NCBI GenBank assembly: GCA_949298405.1 | Contig: CASFWA010000002.1 | Span: forward strand, 10,048 to 74,047 | DNA length: 64,000 nucleotides | From: an uncultured Pseudomonadota bacterium | GTDB lineage: Bacteria > Pseudomonadota > Alphaproteobacteria > Rs-D84 | Direction: 5' to 3' | In this document: positions 314 to 55,176 of the stretch, piece by piece | How positions within the stretch are numbered: position 1 is the stretch's first letter | How the letters are laid out: each line of letters opens with the position of its first letter | Position numbers and translations under genes: made by a program | Notes under the pieces: model-generated | Database searches by the model: none | What the model saw: the letters and a program-made list of their open reading frames with translations, nothing else | Told to the model about the DNA's origin: nothing

Positions 314-655
314 TTATTCCCCATCCGGGATTTCGGGGCTGGACACTTCGGTAATATCATCAAAGGGGATTTTGGTTTTGACTATGGTGATGTATCGATA
401 TTCGGGGTCTATGCGGGTGACCAGGCCCGTTATAGTGTCATAGGCATCGGTCCGGTAAAATCGCACCGTTATCATCATGCCTTTTTTAACCAACCCAAGT
501 TTCCGAGACAGTCGTTCGGCGGCATCACCAATCAATTCCCGTCGGGGTTCAACCACCCGATTTTTAGCCAACACCATCGCATAATACCCACGCAGGGCCG
601 CAAAAGGCATAAACTGTTTTGCACGTGCGGTATTATCAGCCATTGTGTCCCCCAA
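314..655 (-). CDS. YolD-like protein (UmuD-analogue partner of Y-family polymerase)
   Basis: 113 aa. The C-terminal pattern ITVRFYR.DAYDTITGLVTRIDPEYRYITIV...IPFDDITEV resembles the YolD family. It overlaps the stop of the upstream umuC-like gene by 20 nt, indicating an operon. Confidence 0.5.
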   Translation of the reverse strand: MGDTMADNTARAKQFMPFAALRGYYAMVLAKNRVVEPRRELIGDAAERLSRKLGLVKKGMMITVRFYRTDAYDTITGLVTRIDPEYRYITIVKTKIPFDDITEVSSPEIPDGE

Positions 656-1898
656 CCAAAGTATTACGTTTGCGACCGGTGGACTTCTCGTGATAATTTA
701 TGCCACGCAGGATGGCATTCTTGCCAAACTTGCCCTTGATATCCAGCAGTGCGTGTTGCAGTTTGCTTTCGCGTTCATCCGCCGTTGTGTCCACAAATAA
801 ATCCAGTTGCAGATGCACCGTATCTGCATCGACCAGGTTCCCCAACCCAACCGTCAATTTATGTATCGGTGTGCGTTTGTCGGTTGTTTCACGATACAAT
901 CGCACAAAGTCCGCCACCAATGTCTTGTAAGACGATGTGTGCGCTGGCAATTTACGACTGCCCCCGGTTGGGCGTCGCACATCCCGTGAATACCCCACAG
1001 ACAGAGATATTTCATCAGCCACCAGGTTCTTTTCCACCAATTCCAAGACCAGGTTATCCACCATTTCCTGCATCACAATCTGTGCATCGTCAAAGTTATA
1101 ATCTTCGAACAGAATCTGGCCGTTGGACAGTGAATGGGATTTCGCCTGATAGTTATGAATGTCGGCAATTGTGCATGGCTCTATGCCGTTCGCATGGTCA
1201 ATCAGGTATTCTGCATTTGTGCCGAACTCACGATACAGGGTTTCAGCCGGCAACTGCGTCACCCCATACAGGTCATAAACACCATATTTTTCCAGTCGCC
1301 GTGCAATGCCCGCCCCAATGTTCCAAATGTCCGTTATTGGCCGATGATGCCACAGGTGTTCCCGGAACGATTCCGCATCCAAGTATCCGATATGATCGGG
1401 GACTTTCTTGGCCGTGATGTCCAGCGCAACCTTGGCCAAGAACAAGTTTGTGCCGATGCCGGCGGTGGCGCATATGCCCGTCTCGGACCGCACCGCATCC
1501 ATCAGCATTATCGCCATTTCTTTGGGCGACCGTTTATACATTTTCAAGTAAGGCGTGATATCGATAAAGCATTCGTCAATGGAATAGACATGGATGTCTT
1601 CGGGCGAGATATAGCGCAGATAAATCCCGTAAATCTGGGCGGATACCTCCATATACTTTTTCATGCGGGGCATGGCGGTGATGTATTCAACGTTTTTGGG
1701 GATTTCAAAGACCCGGCAACGATTACGAATCCCCAGCGCCTTCATCGCCGGCGTTATCGCCAGACAGACCGCCCCCTGCCCCCGTGACGGGTCCGCCACC
1801 ACCAGGTTTACCGCAAACGGGTCCAGCCCACGGTCAACCGCTTCGACCGAGGCAAAGAAACTCTTTAAATCAATGCAAAGATAAAACCTTTCCGCCAT
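636..1898 (-). CDS. umuC: Y-family (error-prone) DNA polymerase, UmuC/DinB-like
   Basis: 420 aa. N-terminus FYLCIDLKSFFASVE with IDECFIDIT (catalytic DE) and a little-finger region are typical of UmuC/PolIV. GC content is clearly higher than the backbone. Confidence 0.85.
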   Translation of the reverse strand: MAERFYLCIDLKSFFASVEAVDRGLDPFAVNLVVADPSRGQGAVCLAITPAMKALGIRNRCRVFEIPKNVEYITAMPRMKKYMEVSAQIYGIYLRYISPEDIHVYSIDECFIDITPYLKMYKRSPKEMAIMLMDAVRSETGICATAGIGTNLFLAKVALDITAKKVPDHIGYLDAESFREHLWHHRPITDIWNIGAGIARRLEKYGVYDLYGVTQLPAETLYREFGTNAEYLIDHANGIEPCTIADIHNYQAKSHSLSNGQILFEDYNFDDAQIVMQEMVDNLVLELVEKNLVADEISLSVGYSRDVRRPTGGSRKLPAHTSSYKTLVADFVRLYRETTDKRTPIHKLTVGLGNLVDADTVHLQLDLFVDTTADERESKLQHALLDIKGKFGKNAILRGINYHEKSTGRKRNTLVGGHNG

Positions 1899-1949
1899 TC
1901 CGGGAATCAGTATAAACTGAATTCACAGGATGTCAAAAAGGATTGCATG

Positions 1950-1980
1950 AATAAAGAAACCCGCCCATGTGGGGCGGGAA
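1950..1980 (-). terminator. rho-independent terminator downstream of the small secreted-protein gene
   Basis: Hairpin CCCGCCC-ATGT-GGGGCGGG; on the minus strand it is followed by TTTCTTTATT. Confidence 0.5.
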
Positions 1981-1986
1981 TTCTTA

Positions 1987-2184
1987 TTAAAAACGATAGC
2001 TCAAATTATTAGATTTGATACCATCTGGGCGTGTTCTGTAATGTGACTGCACATATGTGCCATTGCTTTTTGTATAACCGTTCACATACACATACCCTGA
2101 GCCACCATAATAACTGGCCTGAGCTGGTACATTAAACACACACAGCGACAACACCACAACCAAACAACTTATTACCTTCTTCAT
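1987..2184 (-). CDS. small secreted Gly/Tyr-rich protein, hypothetical
   Basis: 65 aa with a cleavable signal peptide (MKKVISCLVVVLSLCVFNVPAQA). An AAGGA Shine-Dalgarno lies 8 nt upstream of the ATG, and a terminator follows. Confidence 0.4.
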   Translation of the reverse strand: MKKVISCLVVVLSLCVFNVPAQASYYGGSGYVYVNGYTKSNGTYVQSHYRTRPDGIKSNNLSYRF

Positions 2185-2293
2185 TTCATATCCTTTTGGT
2201 TCCGCGCAAGCACCATGCTCACACTATATAGATAGTGCGAAAACATATAAAATCAATTCGTTTTTCAATATTCAACACACAAAGCTATTATAA

Positions 2294-3118
2294 TCAGCTC
2301 ACTTTGTCTCTGGCACATAATTTTAATTTTGTTACCTTGCAACCATATGATAGGTCCAGCACATAAACATCCCTGAATACAGACTCAAATTTATGCTTTT
2401 GTAATTTATCGGATAAATGCACAAAACCGTTTTCGACAACGACCAACAAATCGCATTCATCGCAATTCTTTTTGTATTGTTCGAACTTCTTGTTCTTGCC
2501 GTCTATCGTCTTTTGCAGGTCTTCGAACGGGTTTTCAATACACATTCCCTGATTATTTACATGCACAGATGTATGCGGCGCATGCATTTTGCTAGCATTT
2601 ACAATAAACGTCTGCCCTTTTACATCAACCCACTTCTTTGTTATTCCCCATTTTGGAATGCCGGCTTCCTCCAGCGCAGATATCAATGCATCCTTAATTT
2701 CTTTGTCTGTGGCACTTAATTTATTAAATCCGGGGTTATAGCACCTGTCAAAAAAATCTTCCCTGGTCATACTGAATTTTCGCGGGTCTTGAATATCTAT
2801 TAGCAAGGTAAGCGCGATTCCCTGTTTCTTAAAGTGGCCGACTATCTTCTTGGCAATTTCTTCCAAACGCATCGTGGCTATGTTCTTGGCACTTTTATTT
2901 ACGAAATTAACAATCTCTAAACCTATTGTGGGCCTATTTGGAACCTTGAATATAAAATCCGGGCTTTCGCTGCTTATTTTTTTGGTTATACCGTTTTCCT
3001 GCATCCAGCGTTCACCAAGTTTATGGCGTGTAAATAACGCTAGATAAGTTGCCTCTGCGCCTTTTTGACCATCATCTTGAATTATAAATTGCCCGCCCTT
3101 GTGTACAACTTCTGTCAT
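2294..3118 (-). CDS. hypothetical protein (island cargo)
   Basis: 274-aa ORF that abuts the DUF4143 ATPase gene on the same strand. No recognisable motif. Confidence 0.45.
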   Translation of the reverse strand: MTEVVHKGGQFIIQDDGQKGAEATYLALFTRHKLGERWMQENGITKKISSESPDFIFKVPNRPTIGLEIVNFVNKSAKNIATMRLEEIAKKIVGHFKKQGIALTLLIDIQDPRKFSMTREDFFDRCYNPGFNKLSATDKEIKDALISALEEAGIPKWGITKKWVDVKGQTFIVNASKMHAPHTSVHVNNQGMCIENPFEDLQKTIDGKNKKFEQYKKNCDECDLLVVVENGFVHLSDKLQKHKFESVFRDVYVLDLSYGCKVTKLKLCARDKVS

Positions 3119-3129
3119 TGTGTATTGTT

Positions 3130-4356
3130 TTACAAATACGCCACGGGGATGACGTTTACATCGGCCGTTAATGGCAGGTGAGTTTGCGCATTACAAACAA
3201 CCGCACCTGGGCCACGTTGGGCATGCAAGACGTCTTCTATGACCCTAAAATTTTTTATGTCGCCAACATTCGGTGTCGTTGTTCGTTTGATTTCCACAGG
3301 ATACAATTTACCGTTTTCTTCAATCAAAACATCGATTTCCGCACCATGATTATCACGATAGTAATATATGTTCGGGTTGCGACCATTGTACCAATAGCTT
3401 TTAATTATTTCGGATACAACGTATGTTTCAAATATACTGCCCGCCATAGCCCCATTTGCAAGTGTTTCCGGTGTGTTCCACCCAGTCAAGAATGCGGCCA
3501 GCCCTGTATCAACGAAATATACCTTTGGAGCTTTGATAATACGTTTGGTAACGTTGCTGTAATACGGACGCAACAAGAACACCAAGCCCGACGCTTCCAA
3601 TACAGACAGCCATGATTTAATCGTTGGTGCGGTTACACCAATGTCACGGGCAATGTCACTGTAATTCATTTCCTGGCCTGTTCTGGCCGCCAAGACACGC
3701 ATAAACGACACAAATGCCATAGTATCCCCAACCGCACCAAAACTTTTAACATCGCGTTCGATATAGGTCTGCAGATATGATTCATAAAACGTATTCCACA
3801 TGTCGTCTGGTGCACCGTGCATTTTCGGATACGAACCACGCCATATCACATCATACACACGATTGATGTCCATTGGCTTGGATATTTTTGCCTTGGCATC
3901 AATATATTCCATTGTTGGCAAGAACGGTTGTGCCATTGGATTATTATTCTTTTCATCTTGGGAAAATCCGTCCAGATGCAGTATGCCGACACGTCCCGCC
4001 AAACTTTCTGATACATTTTTCATCAAATGAAACTGTTGCGAACCGGTCAGCCAGTACATACCAGGCTTGTTTTCTTGGTCTACAATCGCCTTGATATATG
4101 GAAACAGTTGCGGTGCATATTGAACTTCATCAATCAAAACAGGGGCCGGGAAACGTTGCAAAAACAGTTCTGGTTCCGTCTGGGCCAGACTTCTGTTCGC
4201 CAACGTATCCAACGAAACATAGGTTGCAGGCGTATTTGCAACATTTTGCAAAACCGTTGTCTTACCAACTTGACGCGGTCCCGTGACCATAATCACAGGG
4301 AAAAAGTTGCTGATTTTTTCTATACTCTGTTCCAAAGTTCTGTTTATGTATGCCAT
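3130..4356 (-). CDS. AAA+ ATPase of the DUF4143/COG1373 family
   Basis: 408 aa. Walker A VIMVTGPRQVGKTT and Walker B-like VLIDEVQ. Overall architecture matches the widespread ATPase-plus-DUF4143 family. A GGAGG RBS sits 5 nt upstream. Confidence 0.7.
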   Translation of the reverse strand: MAYINRTLEQSIEKISNFFPVIMVTGPRQVGKTTVLQNVANTPATYVSLDTLANRSLAQTEPELFLQRFPAPVLIDEVQYAPQLFPYIKAIVDQENKPGMYWLTGSQQFHLMKNVSESLAGRVGILHLDGFSQDEKNNNPMAQPFLPTMEYIDAKAKISKPMDINRVYDVIWRGSYPKMHGAPDDMWNTFYESYLQTYIERDVKSFGAVGDTMAFVSFMRVLAARTGQEMNYSDIARDIGVTAPTIKSWLSVLEASGLVFLLRPYYSNVTKRIIKAPKVYFVDTGLAAFLTGWNTPETLANGAMAGSIFETYVVSEIIKSYWYNGRNPNIYYYRDNHGAEIDVLIEENGKLYPVEIKRTTTPNVGDIKNFRVIEDVLHAQRGPGAVVCNAQTHLPLTADVNVIPVAYL

Positions 4357-4364
4357 AGCATCCT

Positions 4365-4401
4365 CCGGCGGATTTAAAGTTATACTTTAGAATATCAAAA
4401 G
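4365..4401. repeat. direct repeat copy 1 (about 36 bp) in the ATPase 5' leader
   Basis: CGGCGGATTTAAAGTTATACTTTAGAATATCAAAAG; repeated 60 bp downstream with about 28/36 identity. Confidence 0.6.
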
Positions 4402-4424
4402 TCAGACCCAATGTCAAATATTTT

Positions 4425-4461
4425 CGGCGGATTTAAAGTGACGCTTTAGATTATCGAAAAT
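4425..4461. repeat. direct repeat copy 2
   Basis: CGGCGGATTTAAAGTGACGCTTTAGATTATCGAAAA. The first 15 nt are identical to copy 1. Confidence 0.6.
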
Positions 4462-4471
4462 GCAGCCATAT

Positions 4472-5449
4472 TTAGCAAAAATCATCGAACACATCACCAC
4501 CTGTCCATTCATAACCGCGTTCTATGGTATAATATTTTTCTGCGCCTTCGTCTGTAATAAACGTTCTTATAGAGGTATGATAGAACATGTTAGATTTATA
4601 CTCTATTTTTGCTAACGCATAGCCCATACCACCACTGGCCATAACCACAATGGCTTTTCTATCCTTATCGAAATCTGCTTTTATAACTTCAGATTGATAA
4701 ACAGCATTTTTAGCAAACAGTTTGCCCTCGCTTATATTGTTCAAGTAATCTTGCAATGGTTCATCTGATACCACGGATGGACATAATGGAAATTCTGATG
4801 GAACTTTCCAGTTAACTTGCATTGCATTAGGTGTAAGCGATTGTTTTTCTATCGGCATATCTTCTTCCACTGTATCTTCTGGGCCCCACTGTTTATCATG
4901 ATACACCCACTCACCCAATTTACCATTGCCTGTCGGCACAGAATCTTCTTTGGCCCAACGTTCTAATTTTTCTTTACTGATTTTTGCTTCATCTGGCGAA
5001 ACTGTGCGCATCCAGTCAAAATTCTGGTCCACACTACCAGCTCTTAAAAGTGCAGGATTTTCCAAGAAGTTTTCAATACTGCCACAACATAATATTATAC
5101 GCTTTCTGGTTATTGGATTGTTCAGTGCGTTTTCCAGTCTAGTTGCCCAACGCAAGTTGTCTGGCCGATTATTACACTTATTTGTGTCCTTGTGGTCTAT
5201 TACATGCGTGGACGATGGCTTTGGTTCAAGAAAGGCCTCTGCAACAATCTGATGAACACGCACAGAATTGATATACATATATCCATTCGTTTCGTTTTTG
5301 GTTCCAAAGGTCCAAACTTCATCTAGTTTGCGTTTTATCTTGTTGGGCCGAGCATGCCGCATTACCGCACCATTATTACGCACAGAGTACCTTTCGTCCT
5401 TGAACACACATTCCTTTTCTTGGTCAAAAAAAGAGTCAACACTTATCAT
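4472..5449 (-). CDS. HNH homing-type endonuclease with NUMOD4-like N-terminal region
   Basis: 325 aa. RYSVRNNGAV resembles NUMOD4. HVIDHKDTNKCNNRPDNLRWATRLEN is an HNH_3 nuclease motif. The gene starts 3 nt after the integrase stop, in an operon. Confidence 0.6.
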   Translation of the reverse strand: MISVDSFFDQEKECVFKDERYSVRNNGAVMRHARPNKIKRKLDEVWTFGTKNETNGYMYINSVRVHQIVAEAFLEPKPSSTHVIDHKDTNKCNNRPDNLRWATRLENALNNPITRKRIILCCGSIENFLENPALLRAGSVDQNFDWMRTVSPDEAKISKEKLERWAKEDSVPTGNGKLGEWVYHDKQWGPEDTVEEDMPIEKQSLTPNAMQVNWKVPSEFPLCPSVVSDEPLQDYLNNISEGKLFAKNAVYQSEVIKADFDKDRKAIVVMASGGMGYALAKIEYKSNMFYHTSIRTFITDEGAEKYYTIERGYEWTGGDVFDDFC

Positions 5450-5451
5450 TA

Positions 5452-6639
5452 TTATCCCCTTATATCCTCTGGCACAAATTCCAACATTTTATCGGCGGCA
5501 CGTTGGATAGAATCACGCACAGGGTCCATTGTTAAACGGGCATATACCTGGGTTGCTGCGCTGGTTTTATCGCCCAGGGCCTTGCCCACAATATGTAAAC
5601 TGGCACCGGTTATGGCCTGGTAACTGCCGAATGTACGACGCAGGTCATGGAACCGCAGGTCTTCGATATTCGCACGTTTTAACAATGCATACCAGGGACG
5701 GTGAAAGTCCTCGACATGACCGCTTTTGCTGCCGGCACGACTTGAAAACACCCAGTCATCAGTCGCATAAGTGCGCATATCTTGCAATATTTCAAGTGCC
5801 TGCGATATTAATGGGATGCGTTGCGGGTCACCATTTTTAGAATCCGGGAACAGCACAAACCCTAGATTCAAATCAACATTTGACCAGCGCATGGACAGCA
5901 TATTTTGCCGACGCTGACCAATAAACAGCGATAACAGCACATAGTTTTTAAACGCCTCGTTCGGCTCTTCGGCCAGTGCTGCAAAGAAACGTGTTATTTC
6001 ATCTGGCTGCAGGAAACGTTCACGGGACTTTTCACGAAACATTTTTATCCCGACCGCAGGATTACCATGATGTGCCGGATACCCCCATTCTATGGCCTTG
6101 TTATACATGTGTTTTATCAATCCAAGTGTCCGGTTGGCGGTGTATAAACTTATCTTGCTGCGCAACCCCGAATGTATCCGTTCCAGGTCAACACGCGTTA
6201 TGCTTATCATTTTACGGTTGTGCAATTCGGGCAGGTAATTGCGAAACATTGATTCAACCTTGGCCTGTGATTTTTGCTTTGTATACACCAAAACGTGCCG
6301 TGGGTAATACTGAGTATCAAAGAACTGTTTTAATGTCATATCACGCAGGGCTTCGTTGCGTTCTTGGCCGGGGTCTGTTCCGTGGTCGGCAACGGTCCGC
6401 AATTCACGTGCTTTCATCCGGGCTTCGACCAATTTTGTAACACCAACACGACCAATTTTTACACGCTTTGGCACCCCCAGGAACTTGGTATAGAAATAGT
6501 ACGTTTTTGTCCCGCCATAGGTCACAATGATGCACAAACCCGGTTGTCCATTGTCATAATAAGTCATTGGACGCTTGTCGGTCGGAATTGGCAATTCGGC
6601 CAACGTTTTTTCTGTAAAATTTATATGGTTATTGGTCAT
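5452..6639 (-). CDS. int: tyrosine site-specific integrase (phage/P4-type)
   Basis: 395 aa. N-terminal arm-binding-like region. C-terminal catalytic HDLRRTF and a Tyr in ATQVYARLT. Lies adjacent to the tRNA-Asn fragment. Confidence 0.85.
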   Translation of the reverse strand: MTNNHINFTEKTLAELPIPTDKRPMTYYDNGQPGLCIIVTYGGTKTYYFYTKFLGVPKRVKIGRVGVTKLVEARMKARELRTVADHGTDPGQERNEALRDMTLKQFFDTQYYPRHVLVYTKQKSQAKVESMFRNYLPELHNRKMISITRVDLERIHSGLRSKISLYTANRTLGLIKHMYNKAIEWGYPAHHGNPAVGIKMFREKSRERFLQPDEITRFFAALAEEPNEAFKNYVLLSLFIGQRRQNMLSMRWSNVDLNLGFVLFPDSKNGDPQRIPLISQALEILQDMRTYATDDWVFSSRAGSKSGHVEDFHRPWYALLKRANIEDLRFHDLRRTFGSYQAITGASLHIVGKALGDKTSAATQVYARLTMDPVRDSIQRAADKMLEFVPEDIRG

Positions 6640-7294
6640 CGTTTATATCCATTGTTGCTATTTTTTCCCAATCAACCCCGTATTTGTCGACAATATCTTG
6701 CATATCTGCAGAAAGATAAAAACTACGCTCGCTACGAATGTCGGTCGGAAATCGAGATGGATTTTTCCGATCATCATGTTCTTGTTGCCAAACTTCAAAA
6801 TCAGAAACAAAAATCCCCCTTTGAACAAAAGTGTCCGCAATCGGATTTTCTTGTAACTTATATCTATCTATGTTGAAAGAGTTCCTTTCCTTTTCCGGTG
6901 TCGAATAATAACAAATAAAACTTGCCAAGTATTTTAACTCGTCTACATTCAAATGCTCGAGCATGTTAGCATACCTGGCGAACAAATTTGATTTACGGTC
7001 GGGTTCTTCCACTTTTCCCATCCCTGAAATTAATCGAGCCAACAAAATCAAATTTCTTTTTGCAACCCCCTCTTGAACGGAACGAGAAAACCTTGCCAAC
7101 ATGCTAAAAAAATCATCCCGATGGATGGCAGTTAGGTCTCCACTGCGAATGTTTGTTAACAACACCTCCCTAGCCATGTTTATGTTTTTCTGACGCCATG
7201 CATCATATACGTGCTGCATTGCGCCACCAACCACCGGCACAGCACCCAAAACACTATCAACTATCTGCGGTAATACAGCATTTTCTTTTTCCAT
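6629..7294 (-). CDS. hypothetical protein, first gene of the hyp-int-HNH operon
   Basis: 221 aa. Overlaps the integrase start by 11 nt. Confidence 0.45.
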   Translation of the reverse strand: MEKENAVLPQIVDSVLGAVPVVGGAMQHVYDAWRQKNINMAREVLLTNIRSGDLTAIHRDDFFSMLARFSRSVQEGVAKRNLILLARLISGMGKVEEPDRKSNLFARYANMLEHLNVDELKYLASFICYYSTPEKERNSFNIDRYKLQENPIADTFVQRGIFVSDFEVWQQEHDDRKNPSRFPTDIRSERSFYLSADMQDIVDKYGVDWEKIATMDINDDQ

Positions 7295-7499: not shown

Positions 7500-7549
7500 A
7501 CGGACTGTTAATCCGTATGTCACTGGTTCGAGTCCAGTTGCCCGAGCCA
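7500..7549 (+). other. 3' 50-nt fragment of tRNA-Asn(GTT) (anticodon arm to CCA); integration-site (att) copy at the island boundary
   Basis: ACGGA-CTGTTAA-TCCGT (anticodon GTT), variable ATGTC, T-arm ACTGG-TTCGAGT-CCAGT, acceptor TGCCCGA-G-CCA. No matching 5' acceptor/D-arm lies upstream, so it is not a complete tRNA. Confidence 0.75.
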
Positions 7550-7556
7550 AGAATTT

Positions 7557-7580
7557 CCGCAGATTTCTGCGGATTTTTTA
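7557..7580 (+). terminator. rho-independent terminator (native tRNA-Asn terminator)
   Basis: CCGCAGA-TT-TCTGCGG followed by ATTTTTTA. Confidence 0.7.
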
Positions 7581-7791
7581 TTGTCTGTCTTCTACCCCGT
7601 TTTTATGCAAAATTGGATGAAAATGGCTCTAAATTGCCGGAGGAGTAAAACAAAAACACATATTTGACACACAGTAATATATACCATTACTGCTGAAATT
7701 TTATATATAAATAATATTTTTATAGAATTGCAATTTTTATTATTTTTATCTACAATTAAGACCGAAAAGAAACTATAAATAGGATATCAGG

Positions 7792-8613
7792 ATGGCAGGA
7801 AAAACAATCCAAATTTATTTACCAAGCGGAAAACTTAAAGGTATAAAAAAAGCTTCTATTACAACAGAAAAACCAATCGTTTTTCAAGTTCCTCTTACAG
7901 AAGTTAGTAATAATATTGATAAACTAGATTTTAATGGTATTTATATTTTAGTTGATAGTATAACAACTAACAAACCTCAACTTTATATTGGTAAAGGGAA
8001 AGTCAAACATAGAATACAACAACATATAAAAAAGAAAAGCTTTTGGAATACGGTTTTTGCAGTTAAACTTGATAGCATTAATGGTTTTAGTGATACAGAT
8101 ATTTCATATCTTGAGTATTATTTTATAAAAAAAGCTAAAGGCTTAACCAATATTATAACAGAAGAAAATAAACAAATCCCACAGATTCCAAAATTACAAG
8201 ATGAAAAATTGGACGAATTAACGTGTTATATTGAAACAATTGAGTTTATATTATCAACCCTGGGCTTAAAATGTTTTCAAAATGAAGACGAAAATAATAC
8301 TTTCACATGCCAAGATAAATACGGAAGTTTTGGCCAAGGAAAATATAATTCAGATTCAGGGCTTCTATTATTAAAGGGCTCTAAATGTAAAATGGCATTA
8401 CATAAAGGAACCAAAAATTTACCTAAAAGAACGGATTTAATTAAAAAAGGAATTTTAAAAGAAAAGGATGGATTCTATATCTTAACAGAAGATACAACTT
8501 TCTCTTCTGTTTCATCCGCAGCTCAAATCGTATTGGCAAGACGAGCTAATGGATGGACCGAGTGGAAAAATAAAGAAGGAAAAACATTGGATGAATTGTA
8601 TAGAATAAAATAA
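7792..8613 (+). CDS. GIY-YIG nuclease with C-terminal DUF4357-like domain
   Basis: 273 aa. GIYILVDS...LYIGKG is the GIY-YIG core. The C-terminal half resembles DUF4357. Local GC is extremely low. Confidence 0.65.
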   Translation: MAGKTIQIYLPSGKLKGIKKASITTEKPIVFQVPLTEVSNNIDKLDFNGIYILVDSITTNKPQLYIGKGKVKHRIQQHIKKKSFWNTVFAVKLDSINGFSDTDISYLEYYFIKKAKGLTNIITEENKQIPQIPKLQDEKLDELTCYIETIEFILSTLGLKCFQNEDENNTFTCQDKYGSFGQGKYNSDSGLLLLKGSKCKMALHKGTKNLPKRTDLIKKGILKEKDGFYILTEDTTFSSVSSAAQIVLARRANGWTEWKNKEGKTLDELYRIK

Positions 8614-8696
8614 AACAACTTAAATAAAAGTAATAAAATCTTATGATTTTTGTTTAAAAATCAAAAGATACTAATTAATAAAAAGGATTTTATAAA

Positions 8697-9530
8697 TTGT
8701 TAAAAAAATATATCAGTATTTATATGACCCAAGATGCATATCGCTCTTTTCGTGCCATATGCCCTAGGAAACTATTTTCTAAATTGATAATTTCTAACAT
8801 TCAATATAGTAATGAAACGTGTCATAAAAAATATCGCAGAAATTTTCAGTTTATACTTTCTGTTCCAAATACAAGTATTGATTCTATATGGAGAATAATA
8901 AATTCAAACATCAATATAAAACAAGAGATTCAATCTGATTGGGAACCTAAAACTACTACCGCACCACAAGTTACAGACAGTATAAAAAAAGACATCCTGC
9001 CTATAACCCAACATACACTACACAAACAATCAGCGACAAAATCTGAACAAGTTGCTGTTAACAAAAAAACTTTTAAAACATCTGAACTTACACCTAAAAT
9101 GGTGGAAGACATTCTTGGAATAGATTACAACCTTTTGCTGGACTCTTACTTTTATTACAATTCTAAATATAGCAACTACTTTGATAGTTATCTAGACGAA
9201 TTATACAATATTAAGGATATATTGGAAAACAATTCCATGTATAAAGAATACAAGCTAGCTTTCATTACATATGCCATAATTATAGAAGAAGAAGATTATA
9301 TAAAGTCTCCTACATTATACGACCCAAATAATTACGATGGAAGTATACCTTGGAATATCTACCCTAAGTACACAACTTTTATTTCATATAATTTAAAAAC
9401 AGAAACTTTTGAAAAATATCCACGAGGTTGGATAAAAATATACGGTTCGCATTTTGATGATATCAAGACTCTATTCAATAGTAAAAATGAAGAAATATTG
9501 TCGGCATTTAAAAATGAAAAAACACGATAA
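8697..9530 (+). CDS. hypothetical protein (AT-rich orphan)
   Basis: 277 aa. TTG start with AAGGA 10 nt upstream; an alternative ATG is at 8724. No motif recognised. Confidence 0.4.
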   Translation: MLKKYISIYMTQDAYRSFRAICPRKLFSKLIISNIQYSNETCHKKYRRNFQFILSVPNTSIDSIWRIINSNINIKQEIQSDWEPKTTTAPQVTDSIKKDILPITQHTLHKQSATKSEQVAVNKKTFKTSELTPKMVEDILGIDYNLLLDSYFYYNSKYSNYFDSYLDELYNIKDILENNSMYKEYKLAFITYAIIIEEEDYIKSPTLYDPNNYDGSIPWNIYPKYTTFISYNLKTETFEKYPRGWIKIYGSHFDDIKTLFNSKNEEILSAFKNEKTR

Positions 9531-9577
9531 AACTACCTTATTTATATGTTGTTTCTAAATTGCCAAAGATATTTTAT

Positions 9578-10153
9578 CTATCTGTTCCTTTCAAATACTT
9601 GTATCTGTATCAACTTTTGATACACTTCGTTATCCACGGCACAGAAGTTTTCTGAATCTATTAAGTTCGCTAAACCTGGTAACCCTAAACTTTTATATAC
9701 TCCTGGTTTTATACATGTACTAAAACCTGTGTAAAACCACTTATTCGGAATAGTAAGTATTTTACCACTCTTTTTATCACGGCATACGATAGTTCCTGCA
9801 TAACCTGTTTGACCCAAAAACTTGATACTTGGTTTAGCGTATCTGGGATTTCGTATAACTTTACCTATATAAGGAACACCAGAATAAGGACTTATACTTA
9901 AAGATACAACCGCAACTAATTCATAACTTTTATTAAACCTAGCATCTTTTTTTAAAATATTTCTAAAATTATTGTAAATTATATTGTCTTCTTTGGATGC
10001 TGCAACGCCATTATTAAGACAACCCGTATCATAATCAAACCATTCAACAAATTGATAATTTGCACCTAATAATTCGTGCATTTTATTTTGTGTTAAAGTT
10101 TCTTTTATTATAGCCATTAAGTAATAAACTAGCACAAAGGAATCCTTTTTCAA
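9578..10153 (-). CDS. hypothetical protein (AT-rich orphan)
   Basis: 191-aa ORF convergent with the 8697 gene. Confidence 0.4.
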   Translation of the reverse strand: MKKDSFVLVYYLMAIIKETLTQNKMHELLGANYQFVEWFDYDTGCLNNGVAASKEDNIIYNNFRNILKKDARFNKSYELVAVVSLSISPYSGVPYIGKVIRNPRYAKPSIKFLGQTGYAGTIVCRDKKSGKILTIPNKWFYTGFSTCIKPGVYKSLGLPGLANLIDSENFCAVDNEVYQKLIQIQVFERNR

Positions 10154-10162
10154 TGAAATTAT

Positions 10163-10197
10163 AAAAGAATCAGCGGTGAAATTCCGCTGATTCTTTT
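10163..10197 (-). terminator. rho-independent terminator after the 10204-11199 gene
   Basis: AAAAGAATCAGCGG-TGAAATT-CCGCTGATTCTTTT, a perfect 14-bp stem. Confidence 0.7.
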
Positions 10198-10203
10198 ATA
10201 TTA

Positions 10204-11199
10204 CTAATTTAACTCTATCAACTCATATTTTGTCGTGCCTAACCCTATTGATTCTGCATACGGTAAAATATGTCGCCCCATCTGTCTGTCAATTCGTTCT
10301 TGTAATTTCTTTGCACCTGTGTCTTTAGACGCATATATCATATCTACAAACGCTTGGTCATTAGCAACTGGATCCGTTGATGCAACAATCCCCAAGTCAG
10401 ACATAACTGGATCCGTTTGATGCGCATCGCAATCACAATCAACTGACAAAAAGTTCATAACTGTTATATATACAATCTGCTTGCCCTGCGAAGCAAAATA
10501 ATCACTAACAGATTTTGCCGCCTCTGCCATTGATTCTATAAATGCCTGTTGTTCTGGTAAATTAGACCACAATATTTCTGGGTCTTCTGTGAACCCTGCT
10601 GAATGAATATAAGCCTTGCCATTTCTTGACGCTATACCAATAGATTGATTCTTTAAACTCGCACCAAAGCCGCCCATTGCATGTCCCTTGCCATGTGCTA
10701 AATTTAATATTGAATCATAATTATCCAAATGTGTCCCAACAAGGTTATATTTTAAATGCTTGCCATTATTAACTGGTATTTTCTTTTCGCCTTCTGCATC
10801 CATAATATCAACGTCCGCAAATTTTGTAAAACCGTGTTCTTCTGCAACCTTTAAATGGTCTTCTACTGTATTGCGTTTTCCAGCATATGCCGTATTACAC
10901 TCAAGAATAGTACCCTTTAATTTCTGAACAAGCGGTCCTATTAATTCAGCCTTTAAATAACCGCGAGAACCAGCCTCGCCAGTTGAAACTTTTACCCCGA
11001 CCCTGCCCTTTAATTCTACGCCAAGTGCGTCATATATTTTTATCAAATTTTCTGGTGTTATATCTTTTACATAATATACTTTTGCTGGTTCGTTTTTCAT
11101 TTCTTTCTCCGCGTTACTAAAACTATTATATATAAACCATATTAATGTTATACCTATTAAAATACTTATAAAAAGTATAAACAATTTTTTATAATTCAT
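10204..11199 (-). CDS. membrane-anchored hypothetical protein, possibly DUF362 family
   Basis: 331 aa with an N-terminal TM helix. Contains a VDCDCDAHQ Cys cluster. The family assignment is a recollection, not verified. Confidence 0.35.
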   Translation of the reverse strand: MNYKKLFILFISILIGITLIWFIYNSFSNAEKEMKNEPAKVYYVKDITPENLIKIYDALGVELKGRVGVKVSTGEAGSRGYLKAELIGPLVQKLKGTILECNTAYAGKRNTVEDHLKVAEEHGFTKFADVDIMDAEGEKKIPVNNGKHLKYNLVGTHLDNYDSILNLAHGKGHAMGGFGASLKNQSIGIASRNGKAYIHSAGFTEDPEILWSNLPEQQAFIESMAEAAKSVSDYFASQGKQIVYITVMNFLSVDCDCDAHQTDPVMSDLGIVASTDPVANDQAFVDMIYASKDTGAKKLQERIDRQMGRHILPYAESIGLGTTKYELIELN

Positions 11200-11269: not shown

Positions 11270-12622
11270 TCAAAACCTTTGCATCATAGAAAATTCTATA
11301 CCCCATTTATCAAATTCACGTTGCCATATATTTGAATCACGGCGCATATAACTGAATGTGAAAGTCGGAACAAAATTCCATACCTCCAATTTACTATTTG
11401 AAATTGATACCGCATACCTCTGTGTTAAACTGCTTTCTGCAATTTGTTCAAACTTTCCGTCTTTTACAACCCAGCGCATATCATCATAATCCTGCAAATA
11501 TACAGATACATCAAAATACACATTAAACTGTGCTGGCAAATCTATCCCAAAACCTATTCCTAAACTTGGTCGCCAATTTGAATACACTCTATCCTTTGTA
11601 ACCTCTCTTGCAACTCCTAGTCGCAACATTACGTATTTTGAGGAATCAAACGAATGTATAAAGCGACTTGTAGCGTCATACGTTTGACCATCTAAAATCA
11701 ATCCGAAATCATCGTATGTATTATCACTAACAAGAAACGACAGTTGCCCAGATGTCTTACGTGTAAAATCATAGTTTATATTTAAACGCCCACCAGCAGA
11801 CCAATTATAAGGGTTCCAACCATACCACCGCCTGCTTGCCGTTGCAGCAAACCATACATCACCGTTTTCCCATACATACCTTGGTCCTGAACTTACAAAC
11901 AATAACAAGTCATCAAAATCGTGCTTATTATAGATATTTGCATAAATATTCGCATCCGATTTCCAACGCCACTGTTCTGACAATCGAAACTCGTAATCAC
12001 CACCCAAAACGAAGTTAAACCCAACTGCTTTTTCTGGCTCAGGTAATTGTCTACATAATGGTCCAAAAATCGTATCAACACATTCTTCACCACCAACAGA
12101 AGTGTTAATATTATTATCTGGTGCCATGCCTAAGTTTAAATACACATTCCAGTTTTTGTTCTGACGAATTACGTATCTCATATAATTCATCACATTTTTT
12201 ATATCGTCTGGTAAGTCTTTACCCGCCATGGCACGACGTAACTGATAATCCGCCTGGCGCCATTGTTTTGTATTCATATAGCAAATTGCTAATTCAAATC
12301 GAACTCTTGCTAAATCTGGATATTTATCAAGAATCTTGCGATATATCTTTATCGCTGTTTCATAATCTTTGTTTGCAGTAGCAACACGCCCACGTAAGAA
12401 ATTTTGCTCAATATTTAATGCAACGCTTTCAAATTCTGGTAGGTTATCTAATATAGATTCTGCCTGTTCTATTTCACCCTTGTCTATCAACGCACCAGTT
12501 ATTTTTAGTGCATCAACTGCAGACATAGTAATTTCTTTCGAATTATCTTTCACCTTATGCGATTCTGCCTGGCATAAGCCAGGCAGAACGATAATGATAA
12601 AAGCAAACAATAATCTCTTCAC
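11270..12622 (-). CDS. Slam-like (surface lipoprotein assembly modulator, DUF560) outer-membrane protein
   Basis: 450 aa. Signal peptide, then N-terminal TPR-like repeats, then a C-terminal region of alternating hydrophobic beta-strand pattern ending in a terminal Phe (…MMQRF). Flanked by two lipoprotein genes with TbpB/fHbp-like C-terminal barrels. Confidence 0.6.
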   Translation of the reverse strand: MKRLLFAFIIIVLPGLCQAESHKVKDNSKEITMSAVDALKITGALIDKGEIEQAESILDNLPEFESVALNIEQNFLRGRVATANKDYETAIKIYRKILDKYPDLARVRFELAICYMNTKQWRQADYQLRRAMAGKDLPDDIKNVMNYMRYVIRQNKNWNVYLNLGMAPDNNINTSVGGEECVDTIFGPLCRQLPEPEKAVGFNFVLGGDYEFRLSEQWRWKSDANIYANIYNKHDFDDLLLFVSSGPRYVWENGDVWFAATASRRWYGWNPYNWSAGGRLNINYDFTRKTSGQLSFLVSDNTYDDFGLILDGQTYDATSRFIHSFDSSKYVMLRLGVAREVTKDRVYSNWRPSLGIGFGIDLPAQFNVYFDVSVYLQDYDDMRWVVKDGKFEQIAESSLTQRYAVSISNSKLEVWNFVPTFTFSYMRRDSNIWQREFDKWGIEFSMMQRF

Positions 12623-13530
12623 TATTTCACACCAAAAGCAACATCCATTTTAATACCAGATGTATGCTCTTTAAAATTCACAGTTCCTACTGCTTCTGTC
12701 GGCACACCAATTTCTGTTTTAGGTCCATAATAATTAACTGACATATTTGCACCAGAAGTTATAAATTTATTACCCCCGACATCAAATTTCACTAAATCTT
12801 CTTTGTTCTTATAATTACTAAATTCTATTGTACCTGCGGTATCATCTTTTACTGTGACATCATACCAGTTATCAAATGTAGCGCCAAGTGTACTAACACC
12901 CGTTTCTTTATCAAAGTTTAATACAGCATCACCATCTAATTTTACAAATTCTGAATCTGCACTTGCACCACCAACCGCACGCCCAGAAAATTGCACGTCT
13001 TTTACAATATCCGCAACATCTATCCTTTGTGTTGCATTACCACTAACAAAAACTTTATCTTCTATACCAGCACGATTTGCCTCATTTTCATTTGTAATTT
13101 CATACGTACCAAAGTCCGAATAAGACAAACCTAATTCTTTTCCCAAAGAAGAATAATCCAAACTTTCATCCGCAAATTCTATACGCACGCTAGAAATTCT
13201 ATTTCCACGCGAAGGTCTGGTTCCCCTATCAGATTGCACAATATTTTCTGCATCATTTCCCCTGTCTGTACTCGGCACATAATTTACATCATCACCACGT
13301 TCATCAGTTGGGTCACGTTCAGATGTATCGCCCCTGTCTTCACTTGGTTCTGGATTTGTTTCACCCCGATTGTCACTTGGTAAATAATTTGAACTATTTC
13401 CACGACCTGATGTCGGTATATGCTTAGTACAACCTTCGGCAGAATCAAGGCATGCTGGGGAATATCCACCGCCACCACCACCACAAGCAGCCAAAATAAC
13501 AGTCAGCATTAAACAAGTTATTTTTTTCAT
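12622..13530 (-). CDS. surface lipoprotein (SLP) with TbpB/fHbp-like C-terminal handle-barrel domain
   Basis: 302 aa. Lipobox ILAAC followed by a Gly run. The C-terminal domain ends ...DVAFGVK (FGAK-type ending) and is paralogous to the 13688-14932 product. Confidence 0.65.
   Translation of the reverse strand: MKKITCLMLTVILAACGGGGGGYSPACLDSAEGCTKHIPTSGRGNSSNYLPSDNRGETNPEPSEDRGDTSERDPTDERGDDVNYVPSTDRGNDAENIVQSDRGTRPSRGNRISSVRIEFADESLDYSSLGKELGLSYSDFGTYEITNENEANRAGIEDKVFVSGNATQRIDVADIVKDVQFSGRAVGGASADSEFVKLDGDAVLNFDKETGVSTLGATFDNWYDVTVKDDTAGTIEFSNYKNKEDLVKFDVGGNKFITSGANMSVNYYGPKTEIGVPTEAVGTVNFKEHTSGIKMDVAFGVK
12863..12897. repeat. inverted repeat core A (35 bp identical, within ~90 bp of ~80% identity), inside SLP gene 1
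   Basis: TACCAGTTATCAAATGTAGCGCCAAGTGTACTAAC; its exact reverse complement is at 14648-14682. Confidence 0.85.
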
Positions 13531-53528: not shown

Positions 53529-54274
53529 AAAAAGTTGTTTATACATGCATAACAGGGAATTATGATGATGTCCCTGAATATAAATATATAGATAAAACCT
53601 GGGATTATTTCTTATTTACTGATAATCCAGAATTATTAAAACATAAAAAAATTAAACATTGGAATATTGAACCGCTTGTTTATAAAAAACTTGATAATGT
53701 TCGGAATGCCCGTTGGCATAAAATAAATACCCACATACTATTTCCTGATTATAATTATAGTTTATGGTTAGATGCTAACATTTCAATAAACACAAAAAAT
53801 ATTTTTGAAAAATGTAACAAATATATAAAAAAGGATGTATTAATTGCTATTCCTTTACATCCAGAAAGAAATTGTATTTATAAAGAAGCAGAAATAATAA
53901 AACAATTAAATATCGATTATCCCCAAAAAGTTAATAAAGAAATGCGTTTTTTGCAAAAGAATCATTACCCACAAAATAATGGATTATCAGAAACATGTAT
54001 AATATTTAGACAACACAATAAAATTCAACCGATGTTAGATTTATGGTGGGAAATGATAAAAAAATACTCTAAAAGAGACCAATTGTCTTGTAATTTTGCA
54101 GCTTGGAGGTATAATATAAAAATAATCCCAATGTATAACCAAGCAGGTGCACACAGAACAAATAAAGATTTTACTTTTTCGTATAAATCAACTCATAATC
54201 AAGATAAAATTAATACAAATAAAATCAAAAAAATTTTATGTTTTTTGACAAATTATTTAAAGGTTCAAAAATGA
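53525..54274 (+). CDS. putative glycosyltransferase-like protein (TGNYD motif)
   Basis: 249 aa. N-terminal VYTCITGNYDDV. Family assignment uncertain. Confidence 0.45.
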   Translation: MKKVVYTCITGNYDDVPEYKYIDKTWDYFLFTDNPELLKHKKIKHWNIEPLVYKKLDNVRNARWHKINTHILFPDYNYSLWLDANISINTKNIFEKCNKYIKKDVLIAIPLHPERNCIYKEAEIIKQLNIDYPQKVNKEMRFLQKNHYPQNNGLSETCIIFRQHNKIQPMLDLWWEMIKKYSKRDQLSCNFAAWRYNIKIIPMYNQAGAHRTNKDFTFSYKSTHNQDKINTNKIKKILCFLTNYLKVQK

Positions 54275-55137
54275 TTTTTAATCGTATATCAAAGGAAAAA
54301 GAAAAAGCAAATGATGCTAATTTATTAATTTATTCTTATGCTAACAAAAAATATTATGAATTTGCAATTTTATACCCTATATGGGTACTTCAAAATAATC
54401 AAGATGCAAAAATAGAAATTGCTTTAGAAGATAAAGATTTATTCTATAAAAAGTATTCTCATTTAATAGAATATTACGAAAAAAACTATACCAATAAAGT
54501 ACTTTTTACACAGATAGATAAAAAAGTTATACAATACCCTGCTGGAACAATACGTTTTATAACACAACCAAAAAGCAAAGCAAAATATGTATACATAGGA
54601 GATATAGATATAATTGTTCTTCACAATATCTGTACCCTGCACATTCCTAACATAGAAAAAAATGCCCTGGATTTTTCAAATATAAAACGCATCGGACAAA
54701 ATAAGTTATCAGGTTTGCACTTCATTGAATATGAAAAAATGTACCCTGTTGAAAAAATAAAAAAGAAGTTAAAACATATAAATGATGAAGAACTTCTTTA
54801 TATTCTAATGAAAAATAAAGGTTATAAGATTCCTGATGAAAATAAAAACAAATATCGTCCACTGTGCGGAATACATATCAGTTATTTTTCGCGCCCGCCA
54901 TTAAAAACTTTAACCACAAAAGACGAAGAAACCACATTTCCTTCATGGTATGATAATTGTAATAATGAAAAACTTCTTTATTCAGAAATAGAAAATTTTT
55001 TTAATTTAAGATATTCAGAAAAAATAAAAAATTTCTATAATAATATAAAAGAAACAGATATAGATTTGCGTAGAATAATTCAATTTATAGATTTATTTGC
55101 TTTTTATTTGAAAAACAATCAACAACTTTTAAGTTAA
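54238..55137 (+). CDS. hypothetical protein in the glycosyltransferase cluster
   Basis: 299 aa; an alternative start is at 54271. Very AT-rich. Confidence 0.4.
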   Translation: MFFDKLFKGSKMIFNRISKEKEKANDANLLIYSYANKKYYEFAILYPIWVLQNNQDAKIEIALEDKDLFYKKYSHLIEYYEKNYTNKVLFTQIDKKVIQYPAGTIRFITQPKSKAKYVYIGDIDIIVLHNICTLHIPNIEKNALDFSNIKRIGQNKLSGLHFIEYEKMYPVEKIKKKLKHINDEELLYILMKNKGYKIPDENKNKYRPLCGIHISYFSRPPLKTLTTKDEETTFPSWYDNCNNEKLLYSEIENFFNLRYSEKIKNFYNNIKETDIDLRRIIQFIDLFAFYLKNNQQLLS

Positions 55138-55176
55138 AAACCGAAGAGGGAAATAAGCCCTCTTCGGTTTTTTATT
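55137..55176. terminator. bidirectional rho-independent terminator
   Basis: AAAACCGAAGAGGG-AAATAAG-CCCTCTTCGGTTTTTTATT. Confidence 0.8.

What the first reader, a model, noticed from the sequence alone, without database searches (positions are those of the whole stretch)
7600..10200. Extremely AT-rich module with a GIY-YIG/DUF4357 nuclease and two orphan ORFs immediately outside the att site
Right after the tRNA-Asn fragment and its terminator the composition drops sharply (long A/T runs, GC well below neighbouring regions). The three ORFs here are a GIY-YIG nuclease with a DUF4357-like C-terminal domain, followed by two unknown proteins of 277 and 191 aa. Standalone GIY-YIG/DUF4357 proteins recur in defence islands. 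The two orphans may be partners (specificity or sensor components) of an uncharacterised defence system, or simply a second acquisition at the same tRNA hotspot.
Basis: partly seen in the sequence, partly recalled or inferred. Interest (0 to 1): 0.5.

Follow-up and report, generated by a model that had tools for sequence, protein, structure and literature searches.

The report
Lone GIY-YIG nuclease, unrelated neighbour genes
Next to a tRNA-Asn integration site sits one stand-alone GIY-YIG/DUF4357 nuclease gene of a catalogued but untested anti-phage candidate family (PADLOC PDC-S14), and the two unknown genes beside it are not its partners, so the locus is ordinary rather than a new three-gene defence system.

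Summary
There is a 50-nt tRNA-Asn 3' fragment (7501-7550), its terminator, and then a 28% GC stretch with three ORFs of 273, 277 and 191 aa. The low GC is about 2 SD below the host mean and is not the lowest in the window.

ORF1 (7792-8613) is a full-length member of the GIY-YIG + DUF4357/RAMA-like family, which PADLOC lists as the untested single-gene candidate PDC-S14. All catalytic GIY-YIG residues are conserved.

The three-gene reading fails. Outside the same species, ORF2 and ORF3 never occur beside a GIY-YIG/DUF4357 gene. No homologue appeared at the loci of the 77-80% relatives or in 80 species-representative loci. No neighbour family recurs in more than 9 of 74 of those loci; the commonest are type I R-M subunits.

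ORF3 is a genus-conserved chromosomal gene that marks the edge of a variable region. ORF2 belongs to a tiny orphan family (20 representatives among 1.84 billion) found elsewhere in unrelated contexts.

The best reading is a lone candidate restriction-like nuclease in a tRNA-adjacent variable region, with a lineage-specific orphan and a backbone gene as neighbours. It is a new member of a known, uncharacterised kind, and interest is low.

The parts
7501..7550 (+). 3' 50 nt of tRNA-Asn(GTT). This is the att core copy at the right end of the integrase island. The island-type bases GA at 7551-7552 suggest that strand exchange occurred just 3' of the tRNA.
   Evidence: Identical to intact tRNA-Asn in L004 and L014. 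Partial Rfam tRNA hit. No intact tRNA-Asn in the window.
7556..7580 (+). Native tRNA-Asn intrinsic terminator: a 7-bp stem with 5 GC pairs, followed by a T-run.
   Evidence: The sequence is conserved in the island-free strain L004.
7792..8613 (+). GIY-YIG + DUF4357/RAMA-like nuclease gene, 273 aa. This is a PADLOC PDC-S14 type single-gene defence candidate. The GIY-YIG core spans about aa 45-130 (nt 7924-8181). DUF4357 spans aa 213-266 (nt 8428-8589).
   Evidence: Pfam DUF4357 at 7.5e-22 and RAMA at 8e-4. PDC-S14 at 1.3e-63 over the full length. Invariant G49, Y51, Y65, G67, R74, E108 and N126. 13 of 23 family members hit PF01541.
8697..9530 (+). ORF2, 277 aa with a TTG start and an AAGGA 9 nt upstream. 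It is a lineage-restricted orphan built from two modules: an N-module of about 75 aa, a disordered linker, and a C-module of about 150 aa. It is not a conserved partner of the nuclease.
9578..10135 (-). ORF3, probably 185 aa from GTG 10135; the maximal ORF runs to TTG 10153 and gives 191 aa. It is a genus-conserved chromosomal gene of unknown function that marks the border of the variable region. It is not part of the nuclease module.
   Evidence: 11 homologues at 58-99% identity. Syntenic position after the RgpF-GT/ABC transporter/.../DUF362 block in several species, 3 bp after DUF362 in L013. No GIY-YIG or ORF2 next to it in other species.
10160..10200 (-). 17-bp hairpin followed by an A/T-rich tail that only loosely meets the T-run criterion. 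It lies between the DUF362 gene and ORF3 and is a terminator-like or intercistronic stem-loop.
   Evidence: the sequence is.
10204..11199 (-). DUF362 gene, a backbone neighbour upstream of ORF3. It is listed for context only.
   Evidence: Pfam 1.7e-43. 88% identical orthologue directly upstream of the ORF3 homologue in L013.

Best explanation
The region is not one system. It holds three independent genes.

(1) Window 7792-8613 encodes a stand-alone nuclease of the GIY-YIG + DUF4357/RAMA-like family (PADLOC candidate PDC-S14). Most likely mechanism (inferred, not shown): the C-terminal DUF4357/RAMA-like domain binds DNA, probably reading a feature or modification typical of foreign DNA. It does this in the way the same domain is appended to type IV enzymes such as GmrSD and McrB. 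It then positions the N-terminal GIY-YIG catalytic domain to cut that DNA. The protein would act as a single-protein, restriction-like (type IV-like) barrier with no cognate methyltransferase. The gene is an accessory resident of a tRNA-adjacent variable region in gut Alphaproteobacteria related to Candidatus Enterousia.

(2) ORF2 (8697-9530) is a rare lineage-specific orphan of unknown role that happens to lie downstream.

(3) ORF3 (9578-10135, minus strand) is a genus-conserved backbone gene at the edge of the variable region.

Shown here: family membership, conserved catalytic residues, absence of any conserved partner, defence-gene neighbourhoods, and dispensability (the gene is deleted in a sister lineage). 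Inferred: DNA cleavage, the target, and anti-phage activity.
For: Family and domains:
- Full-length PDC-S14 match at 1.3e-63; DUF4357 at 7.5e-22.
- 89 homologues.
- G49, Y51, Y65, G67, R74, E108 and N126 are invariant across 23 diverse members. The NGW..W motif in the C-domain is also invariant.
- 13 of 23 members hit Pfam GIY-YIG and 20 of 23 hit RAMA.

No partner:
- tblastn of ORF2 and ORF3 against 109 loci finds them beside GIY only in same-species contigs L003-L008.
- Clustering of +/-3 neighbours in 74 species-representative loci gives no family in more than 9 loci. The top three are HsdR, HsdS and HsdM.
- Immediate neighbours hit many different PADLOC families, none in more than 3 of 145 proteins.

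Defence context of the 77-80% relatives:
- McrBC + KAP NTPase + AbiJ in one set. PLDc_2 + EcoRI methylase + AAA_21 + resolvase in the other.
- Two plasmid copies lie next to type I R-M genes.

Cellular rather than viral:
- 409 loci in 185,579 species genomes, against 5 distant hits in 2.9 million viral contigs and none in 50,697 phage records.

Accessory status:
- A 68-bp frameshifting deletion in sister lineage L003/L005.

ORF3 synteny. ORF2 rarity and foreign contexts.

Literature:
- DUF4357 is fused to GmrSD and McrB type IV enzymes (PMC4619093, PMC5714182, PMC11090510).
- The GIY-YIG-RAMA fusion has been proposed as a candidate modification reader-nuclease (PMC11037411).
- PDC systems are defined by embedding in RM, BREX or DISARM and are untested (bioRxiv 10.1101/2024.01.29.577857).
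Against: - No experiment shows that any PDC-S14 member defends against phage or cuts DNA. The source paper calls the PDCs untested.
- The window protein itself does not reach Pfam GIY-YIG significance. Membership is by transitive full-length homology plus motif conservation.
- No solved structure matches by sequence, and I did not model this protein.
- DUF4357 was not predicted to bind DNA by one sequence-based predictor (PMC5714182).
- The RAMA protein MPND showed no confirmed preference for m6A DNA (cited in PMC11037411).
- Frequent residence next to N6-adenine methyltransferases argues against generic m6A-dependent cutting. These are type I HsdM, type III Mod and an EcoRI-like methylase. 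The target therefore remains open.
- ORF2 lies 83 bp downstream on the same strand with no clear terminator. It is frameshifted in the same lineage that lost the nuclease. A species-specific functional link is therefore not strictly excluded.
Confidence: 0.7

Rival explanations
1. The nuclease forms a two- or three-gene defence system with ORF2 and possibly ORF3, which would act as sensor, specificity or immunity partners.
For: - ORF2 follows the nuclease on the same strand after an 83-bp spacer with no strong terminator.
- The trio is conserved at 97-100% identity in six same-species contigs.
- In lineage L003/L005 both the nuclease (68-bp deletion) and ORF2 (1-bp deletion) are disrupted.
Against: - No ORF2 or ORF3 homologue appears at the loci of the 77-80% relatives (L014-L029) or in 80 species-representative GIY-YIG/DUF4357 loci.
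- ORF2 relatives (L001, L002, L110-L112) and ORF3 relatives (L009-L013, L115-L120) lie in contexts without the nuclease.
- ORF3 is convergent, is syntenic with backbone genes, and sits in an operon-like position after DUF362 in L013.
- Neither orphan hits any PADLOC model.
- Conservation within one species says nothing about linkage.
Confidence: 0.07
2. The GIY-YIG/DUF4357 gene is a selfish, homing-type endonuclease or a cargo remnant of tRNA-targeting mobile elements, and provides no host defence.
For: - The architecture resembles free-standing GIY-YIG homing endonucleases such as I-TevI: an N-terminal GIY-YIG domain, a linker and a C-terminal DNA-binding domain (my knowledge of that family).
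- The gene is patchily distributed across phyla, including archaea and CPR.
- In this clade it lies 0.25-2 kb downstream of different tRNA genes: Asn, Gln and Met. It also lies near a tRNA-Lys in L023.
- It matches phrog_12629 at 2e-34.
Against: - It is almost absent from viral collections.
- It is single-copy in the window.
- There is no second att repeat or inverted repeat around it.
- Its neighbours are overwhelmingly defence genes, and the family was found by embedding inside R-M, BREX or DISARM operons (bioRxiv 10.1101/2024.01.29.577857).
Confidence: 0.1
3. The module is a decaying, functionless remnant. The AT-rich stretch is old horizontally acquired DNA drifting towards loss.
For: - GC is lower than the host mean.
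- Both ORF1 and ORF2 are broken in sister lineage L003/L005, and ORF2 has an in-frame 3-bp deletion in L004.
- The ORF2 family is tiny.
Against: - In the window and in L004 and L006-L008 the nuclease ORF is intact, at 100% amino-acid identity.
- All family-invariant residues are kept.
- 77-81% orthologues are intact in several related species, which indicates purifying selection.
Confidence: 0.08

Closest known systems
PADLOC PDC-S14, an untested single-gene phage defence candidate found by guilt-by-embedding (Payne et al., bioRxiv 10.1101/2024.01.29.577857)
   Same: Full-length HMM match at 1.3e-63, covering residues 1-270 of 273. It matches all five PDC-S14 models. The architecture is the same: GIY-YIG plus DUF4357. 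It has the same habit of lying beside type I R-M and other defence genes.
   Different: In the window it is not embedded in an R-M, BREX or DISARM operon. It sits alone downstream of a tRNA-Asn, next to an orphan gene and a backbone gene. It comes from an uncultured gut alphaproteobacterium with about 36% GC.
Type IV modification-dependent restriction enzymes that carry DUF4357/RAMA-like reader domains, namely GmrSD and McrB fusions (PMC4619093, PMC5714182, PMC11090510). Related to these are the GIY-YIG-RAMA and RAMA-Mrr fusions proposed in PMC11037411.
   Same: The C-terminal domain family is the same. The logic is the same: one polypeptide combining a DNA-reader domain with a nuclease. No cognate methyltransferase is present in the window.
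   Different: The catalytic domain is GIY-YIG, not HNH/DUF1524, PD-(D/E)XK or a GTPase-coupled McrC. The modification dependence of DUF4357/RAMA is unproven. Many family members lie next to m6A methyltransferases, so the target is unlikely to be generic m6A.
GIY-YIG restriction and homing endonucleases such as Eco29kI, Hpy188I and I-TevI (my knowledge of the superfamily)
   Same: The catalytic motif set GIY...YIG, Arg, Glu and Asn is conserved at positions 49-51, 65-67, 74, 108 and 126.
   Different: There is no detectable sequence similarity to any solved GIY-YIG structure. The family has an N-terminal extension of about 45 aa and a RAMA-like C-domain. No adjacent methyltransferase is present, so it is not a type II R-M pair. 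It is not in an intron or a phage intergenic setting.

Membership tests
GIY-YIG nuclease superfamily | GIY and YIG motifs about 10-15 residues apart, followed by a conserved Arg, a catalytic Glu and an Asn | tested here: met
   G49-I-Y51, Y65-I-G67, R74, E108 and N126 are invariant in a 23-member alignment spanning 32-80% identity.
GIY-YIG nuclease superfamily | Significant match to the Pfam GIY-YIG model PF01541 | tested here: inconclusive
   The window protein has no PF01541 hit at E <= 0.1. However, 13 of 23 full-length homologues hit it, with a best E-value of 7.9e-6.
GIY-YIG nuclease superfamily | The alpha/beta GIY-YIG fold | not tested
A profile search against PDB sequences found nothing.
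DUF4357 (PF14267) / RAMA-like domain | Match above the Pfam gathering score | tested here: met
   DUF4357 scores 77.5 bits against a 38.4-bit cut-off, over residues 213-266 and the full model. RAMA scores 19.7 bits, below its 35.2-bit cut-off. 23 of 23 homologues hit DUF4357 and 20 of 23 hit RAMA.
PADLOC PDC-S14 | Full-length match to the PDC-S14 HMMs as a single-gene system | tested here: met
   PDLC04925 matches at 1.3e-63 over residues 1-270. Four further PDC-S14 models match. No conserved partner gene appears in 74 loci.
PADLOC PDC-S14 | Demonstrated anti-phage activity | not testable with these tools
   The source paper describes the 145 PDC systems as untested. The three other papers that mention PDC-S14 were found by a text search. 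The one read reports it only as a PADLOC prediction.
Multi-gene defence system (nuclease plus the two orphans) | Co-occurrence of the component genes across unrelated genomes | tested here: not met
   ORF2 and ORF3 homologues are absent from the loci of the 77-80% relatives and from 80 species-representative nuclease loci. Nuclease homologues are absent from all ORF2-family and ORF3-family loci outside the same species.
Type IV (modification-dependent) restriction enzyme | Cleavage only of modified DNA, and absence of a cognate methyltransferase | not testable with these tools
   No methyltransferase lies next to the gene in the window. Modification dependence needs biochemistry. Frequent m6A-methyltransferase neighbours elsewhere argue against generic m6A targeting.

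The most novel reading that the evidence does not exclude
The GIY-YIG-DUF4357 protein is a modification-dependent (type IV-like) nuclease, and its specificity collided with methylation introduced by a type I R-M island. In sister lineage L003/L005, a different island carrying hsdM/S/R occupies the same tRNA-Asn att site. In exactly that lineage the nuclease carries a 68-bp frameshifting deletion and ORF2 carries a 1-bp frameshift. This would be a natural incompatibility experiment. It could reveal what DUF4357/RAMA reads, and possibly that ORF2 is a lineage-specific accessory factor.
Probability: 0.08. Interest if true: 0.5.

Novelty: new member of a known kind. Interest (0 to 1): 0.2.

Why it matters
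The practical value is a correction. This is not an uncharacterised three-gene defence system. It is one more copy of a widespread candidate that is already catalogued (PDC-S14).

The family itself is worth testing experimentally:
- It is common, with 409 loci among 185,579 species genomes.
- It spans bacteria and archaea.
- It joins a GIY-YIG nuclease to a DUF4357/RAMA-like domain whose ligand is unknown.

The tRNA-Asn locus in these gut Alphaproteobacteria is a small natural series that could guide such tests. It includes an intact allele, a deleted allele and two alternative islands, one of which carries type I R-M.

Tried and rejected
- Family searches on the orphans. Pfam, PADLOC, PHROGs and NCBIfam returned nothing for ORF2 or ORF3. 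The same was true for distant ORF2 relatives.
- Profile searches against PDB sequences. None of the three proteins gave a hit below E = 0.5.
- AlphaFold2 model of ORF3. Mean pLDDT was 52.5, too poor for a fold search, so none was run.
- Search for a second att repeat. I looked for a repeat that would delimit an older island holding ORF1 and ORF2. None was found. The 23-nt tRNA 3' end occurs once in the window, and the region has no meaningful direct repeats.
- Wider scans. Viral-contig scans for the ORF2 and ORF3 families found nothing. The metagenome scan for ORF2 gave only three contigs of 1.2-1.6 kb, with no context.
- Cluster look-up for source names gave no names.
- Generic m6A-dependent restriction. 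I considered this as the mechanism and rejected it, because family members often sit next to N6-adenine methyltransferases.
Full report
**1. What is in the sequence**

Window 7501-7550 is the 3' 50 nt of a tRNA-Asn(GTT).
- It is identical to the corresponding part of intact tRNA-Asn genes in related contigs L004 and L014.
- Rfam scores it as a partial tRNA just below threshold.
- ARAGORN finds no intact tRNA-Asn anywhere in the window.
- A GC-rich hairpin with a T-run follows at 7556-7580.

To the left lies an integrase island.
- It carries a 221-aa ORF, a tyrosine integrase (5452-6639), an HNH_3 protein, an AAA_14/DUF4143 ATPase and a Y-family polymerase.
- Its GC is 43%.
- It runs off the left end of the window.

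To the right, GC falls to 28.3% over 7600-10200, against 36.4 +/- 3.9% for the rest of the window.
- About 5% of host 2.6-kb windows are as low.
- A glycosyltransferase cluster at 51-55 kb is lower, at 24.9%.
- The drop is real but only moderately unusual for this genome.

The three ORFs exist.
- In the island-free sister contig L004, the intact tRNA-Asn directly abuts the same gene array. The module therefore lies outside the att site.

**2. ORF1 (7792-8613, 273 aa)**

Family matches:
- Pfam gives DUF4357 at E = 7.5e-22 over residues 213-266, and a sub-threshold RAMA match.
- PADLOC gives a full-length match to PDC-S14 at 1.3e-63, plus four further PDC-S14 models.
- PHROGs gives phrog_12629, of unknown function.
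- The protein database holds 89 relatives.

Catalytic residues:
- A 23-member alignment spans 32-80% identity.
- In it, G49, Y51, Y65, G67, R74, E108 and N126 are invariant. These are the GIY, YIG, Arg, Glu and Asn of the GIY-YIG active site.
- The C-terminal NGW..W motif is also invariant.
- The window protein itself does not reach Pfam GIY-YIG. However, 13 of 23 family members do, and 20 of 23 reach RAMA.
- No solved structure matches by sequence.

**3. Where the family lives**

Cellular genomes:
- A scan of one genome per species found 409 loci in Bacteroidota, Planctomycetota, Proteobacteria, Bacillota, CPR and archaea.
- The closest relatives (77-81%) are gut Alphaproteobacteria MAGs, some of them named Candidatus Enterousia.

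Viral collections:
- The family is nearly absent. No match in 50,697 phage records, and 5 distant matches in 2.9 million viral contigs.

Contexts of the closest relatives:
- The 80% relative lies beside Peptidase_S51, PLDc_2, an EcoRI-like methylase, an AAA_21 ATPase and a resolvase. This is again just outside a tRNA-Asn att site, which in some contigs carries the very same integrase/HNH island at 99-100% protein identity.
- The 77% relative lies beside McrBC, a KAP NTPase and an AbiJ-like protein, with a tRNA-Lys close by in the L023/L025 version of that locus.
- Other clade members lie 0.25-2 kb downstream of tRNA-Gln, tRNA-Met or tRNA-Asn.

Neighbours across 74 species-representative loci:
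- I clustered the +/-3 neighbours. No family occurs in more than 9 loci.
- The three largest clusters are HsdR, HsdS and HsdM of type I R-M.
- The 145 immediate neighbours hit many different PADLOC families, none in more than three proteins. These include type I REase, type III MTase, Zorya ZacC, DISARM DrmD, AbiLi and other PDCs.
- Two plasmid copies also sit next to type I R-M genes.

This matches how PDC systems were defined. They are genes embedded in R-M, BREX or DISARM operons, and their authors explicitly describe them as untested.

**4. The two orphans are not partners**

ORF2 (8697-9530):
- It is a real gene. Relatives at about 33% identity align end to end, including residues upstream of the first ATG. 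This supports the TTG start and 277 aa.
- The family is tiny: 20 representatives among 1.84 billion. There were three short hits in the metagenome scan and none in viral contigs.
- It has an N-module of about 75 aa that also occurs alone or duplicated, a disordered linker, and a C-module of about 150 aa.
- No family library recognises it.
- The AlphaFold model (pLDDT 76.5) finds only weak, generic fold matches.
- Its relatives lie next to RgpF/tRNA-Met/PagL/UDG/gyrB, or DUF5662/CBAH genes. None lies near a GIY-YIG gene.

ORF3 (9578-10135/10153, minus strand):
- It has 11 relatives at 58-99% identity.
- They occupy a conserved position in related species, at the end of a block that starts with an RgpF-type glycosyltransferase, a 225-aa protein and an ABC transporter.
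- Variable genes come in between: TetR/flavodoxin/cyclophilin-like/DUF362, an AIPR-like protein, or Slam/lipoprotein/DUF362.
- Variable or mobile genes come after.
- In L013 it starts 3 bp after the DUF362 gene.
- I read it as a backbone gene that marks the border of the variable region.
- Its model was too poor to use.

Co-occurrence test:
- tblastn of ORF2 and ORF3 against all 109 loci then held found them beside the nuclease only in same-species contigs, at 97-100% identity.
Its other criterion, loss of the catalytic residues, is also not met. What remains is a single-gene candidate.

**5. Variation at the locus**

- Sister lineage L003/L005 was seen in two independent samples.
- It carries a different island at the same att site: an integrase 56% identical to the window's, DUF4238 and hsdM/S/R.
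- In that lineage the nuclease has a 68-bp deletion (window 8199-8266) and ORF2 has a 1-bp deletion (window 8996).
- This shows both genes are dispensable.
- It is also the only hint of any link between them, or of a conflict between the nuclease and a newly acquired methyltransferase.
- Against a general m6A conflict, intact family members often sit next to N6-adenine methyltransferases.

**6. Mechanism**

Shown:
- an intact GIY-YIG catalytic set;
- a DUF4357/RAMA-like C-domain;
- no partner gene;
- defence-gene neighbourhoods;
- accessory status.

Inferred:
- The C-domain binds DNA and selects the substrate, and the GIY-YIG domain cuts it. This would be a one-protein, restriction-like barrier.
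- The inference rests on the same domain being fused to the type IV enzymes GmrSD and McrB (PMC4619093, PMC5714182, PMC11090510).
- It also rests on the published suggestion that GIY-YIG-RAMA fusions are reader-nucleases (PMC11037411).
- That paper also notes that an m6A preference of a RAMA protein could not be confirmed.
- The target is unknown.

**7. Verdict**

- The nuclease annotation and its defence-island association are supported.
- The partner hypothesis is not supported.
- The gene is a new member of a known but experimentally uncharacterised kind.
- Interest is low (0.2). A small residual chance remains that the locus series reveals a modification conflict or a lineage-specific accessory role for ORF2.

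Noticed in passing
window 4472-7294; L015, L018 and L019 at 1706-4528: The island module made of the integrase (395 aa), the HNH_3 protein (325 aa) and a 221-aa protein recurs at 99-100% protein identity. It sits at the tRNA-Asn att site of a different species background, where the neighbouring GIY-YIG is only 80% identical and the flanks differ. This points to recent inter-species spread of a tRNA-Asn-targeting island.
   Followed up: partly
L003 12529-20558 and L005 3892-6578 (sister strain of the window species): A different island occupies the same att site. It carries an integrase 56% identical to the window's, DUF4238 and type I R-M hsdM/S/R. In that lineage the GIY-YIG gene has a 68-bp deletion (window 8199-8266) and ORF2 has a 1-bp deletion (window 8996).
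   Followed up: partly
L030, L014, L036, L037, L043, L023: Close GIY-YIG/DUF4357 homologues in gut Alphaproteobacteria lie 0.25-2 kb downstream of tRNA-Asn, tRNA-Gln and tRNA-Met genes. One also lies beside a tRNA-Lys (L023). This suggests the gene travels as att-proximal cargo of tRNA-integrating elements.
   Followed up: partly
window 51411-55137: The lowest GC in the window (24.9%) is in a glycosyltransferase cluster (GT2, GT1 and TOD1/MUCI70-like). This is lower than the flagged module.
   Followed up: partly
window 55172-55654 (-): A 160-aa ORF carries an Mtd_N (major tropism determinant N-terminal) domain at E = 5e-13. A similar 190-aa Mtd_N protein appears in related contigs L023 and L025. 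It could be a remnant of a diversity-generating retroelement or of a phage tail fibre.
   Followed up: no
window 11270-13530 (-): A Slam-type outer-membrane protein (TPR plus SlipAM/DUF560, 450 aa) is paired with a 302-aa lipoprotein that has a poly-Gly lipobox region. This is a surface-lipoprotein export pair, in an uncultured gut alphaproteobacterium.
   Followed up: no
window 636-1898 (-) and 3130-4356 (-): The integrase island also carries a Y-family (ImpB/UmuC-like) polymerase gene and an AAA_14/DUF4143 ATPase gene. The island continues beyond the left end of the window, and the intact tRNA-Asn is not in view.
   Followed up: no
P0138, P0139 and P0146-P0152 (ORF2 family): The N-terminal module of ORF2, about 75 aa with the motif IYMTQDAY..FR..C..LF.KL..SNI.Y, also exists as stand-alone proteins of 100-180 aa. 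It is duplicated in 418-435 aa proteins. This is an undescribed small domain.
   Followed up: partly
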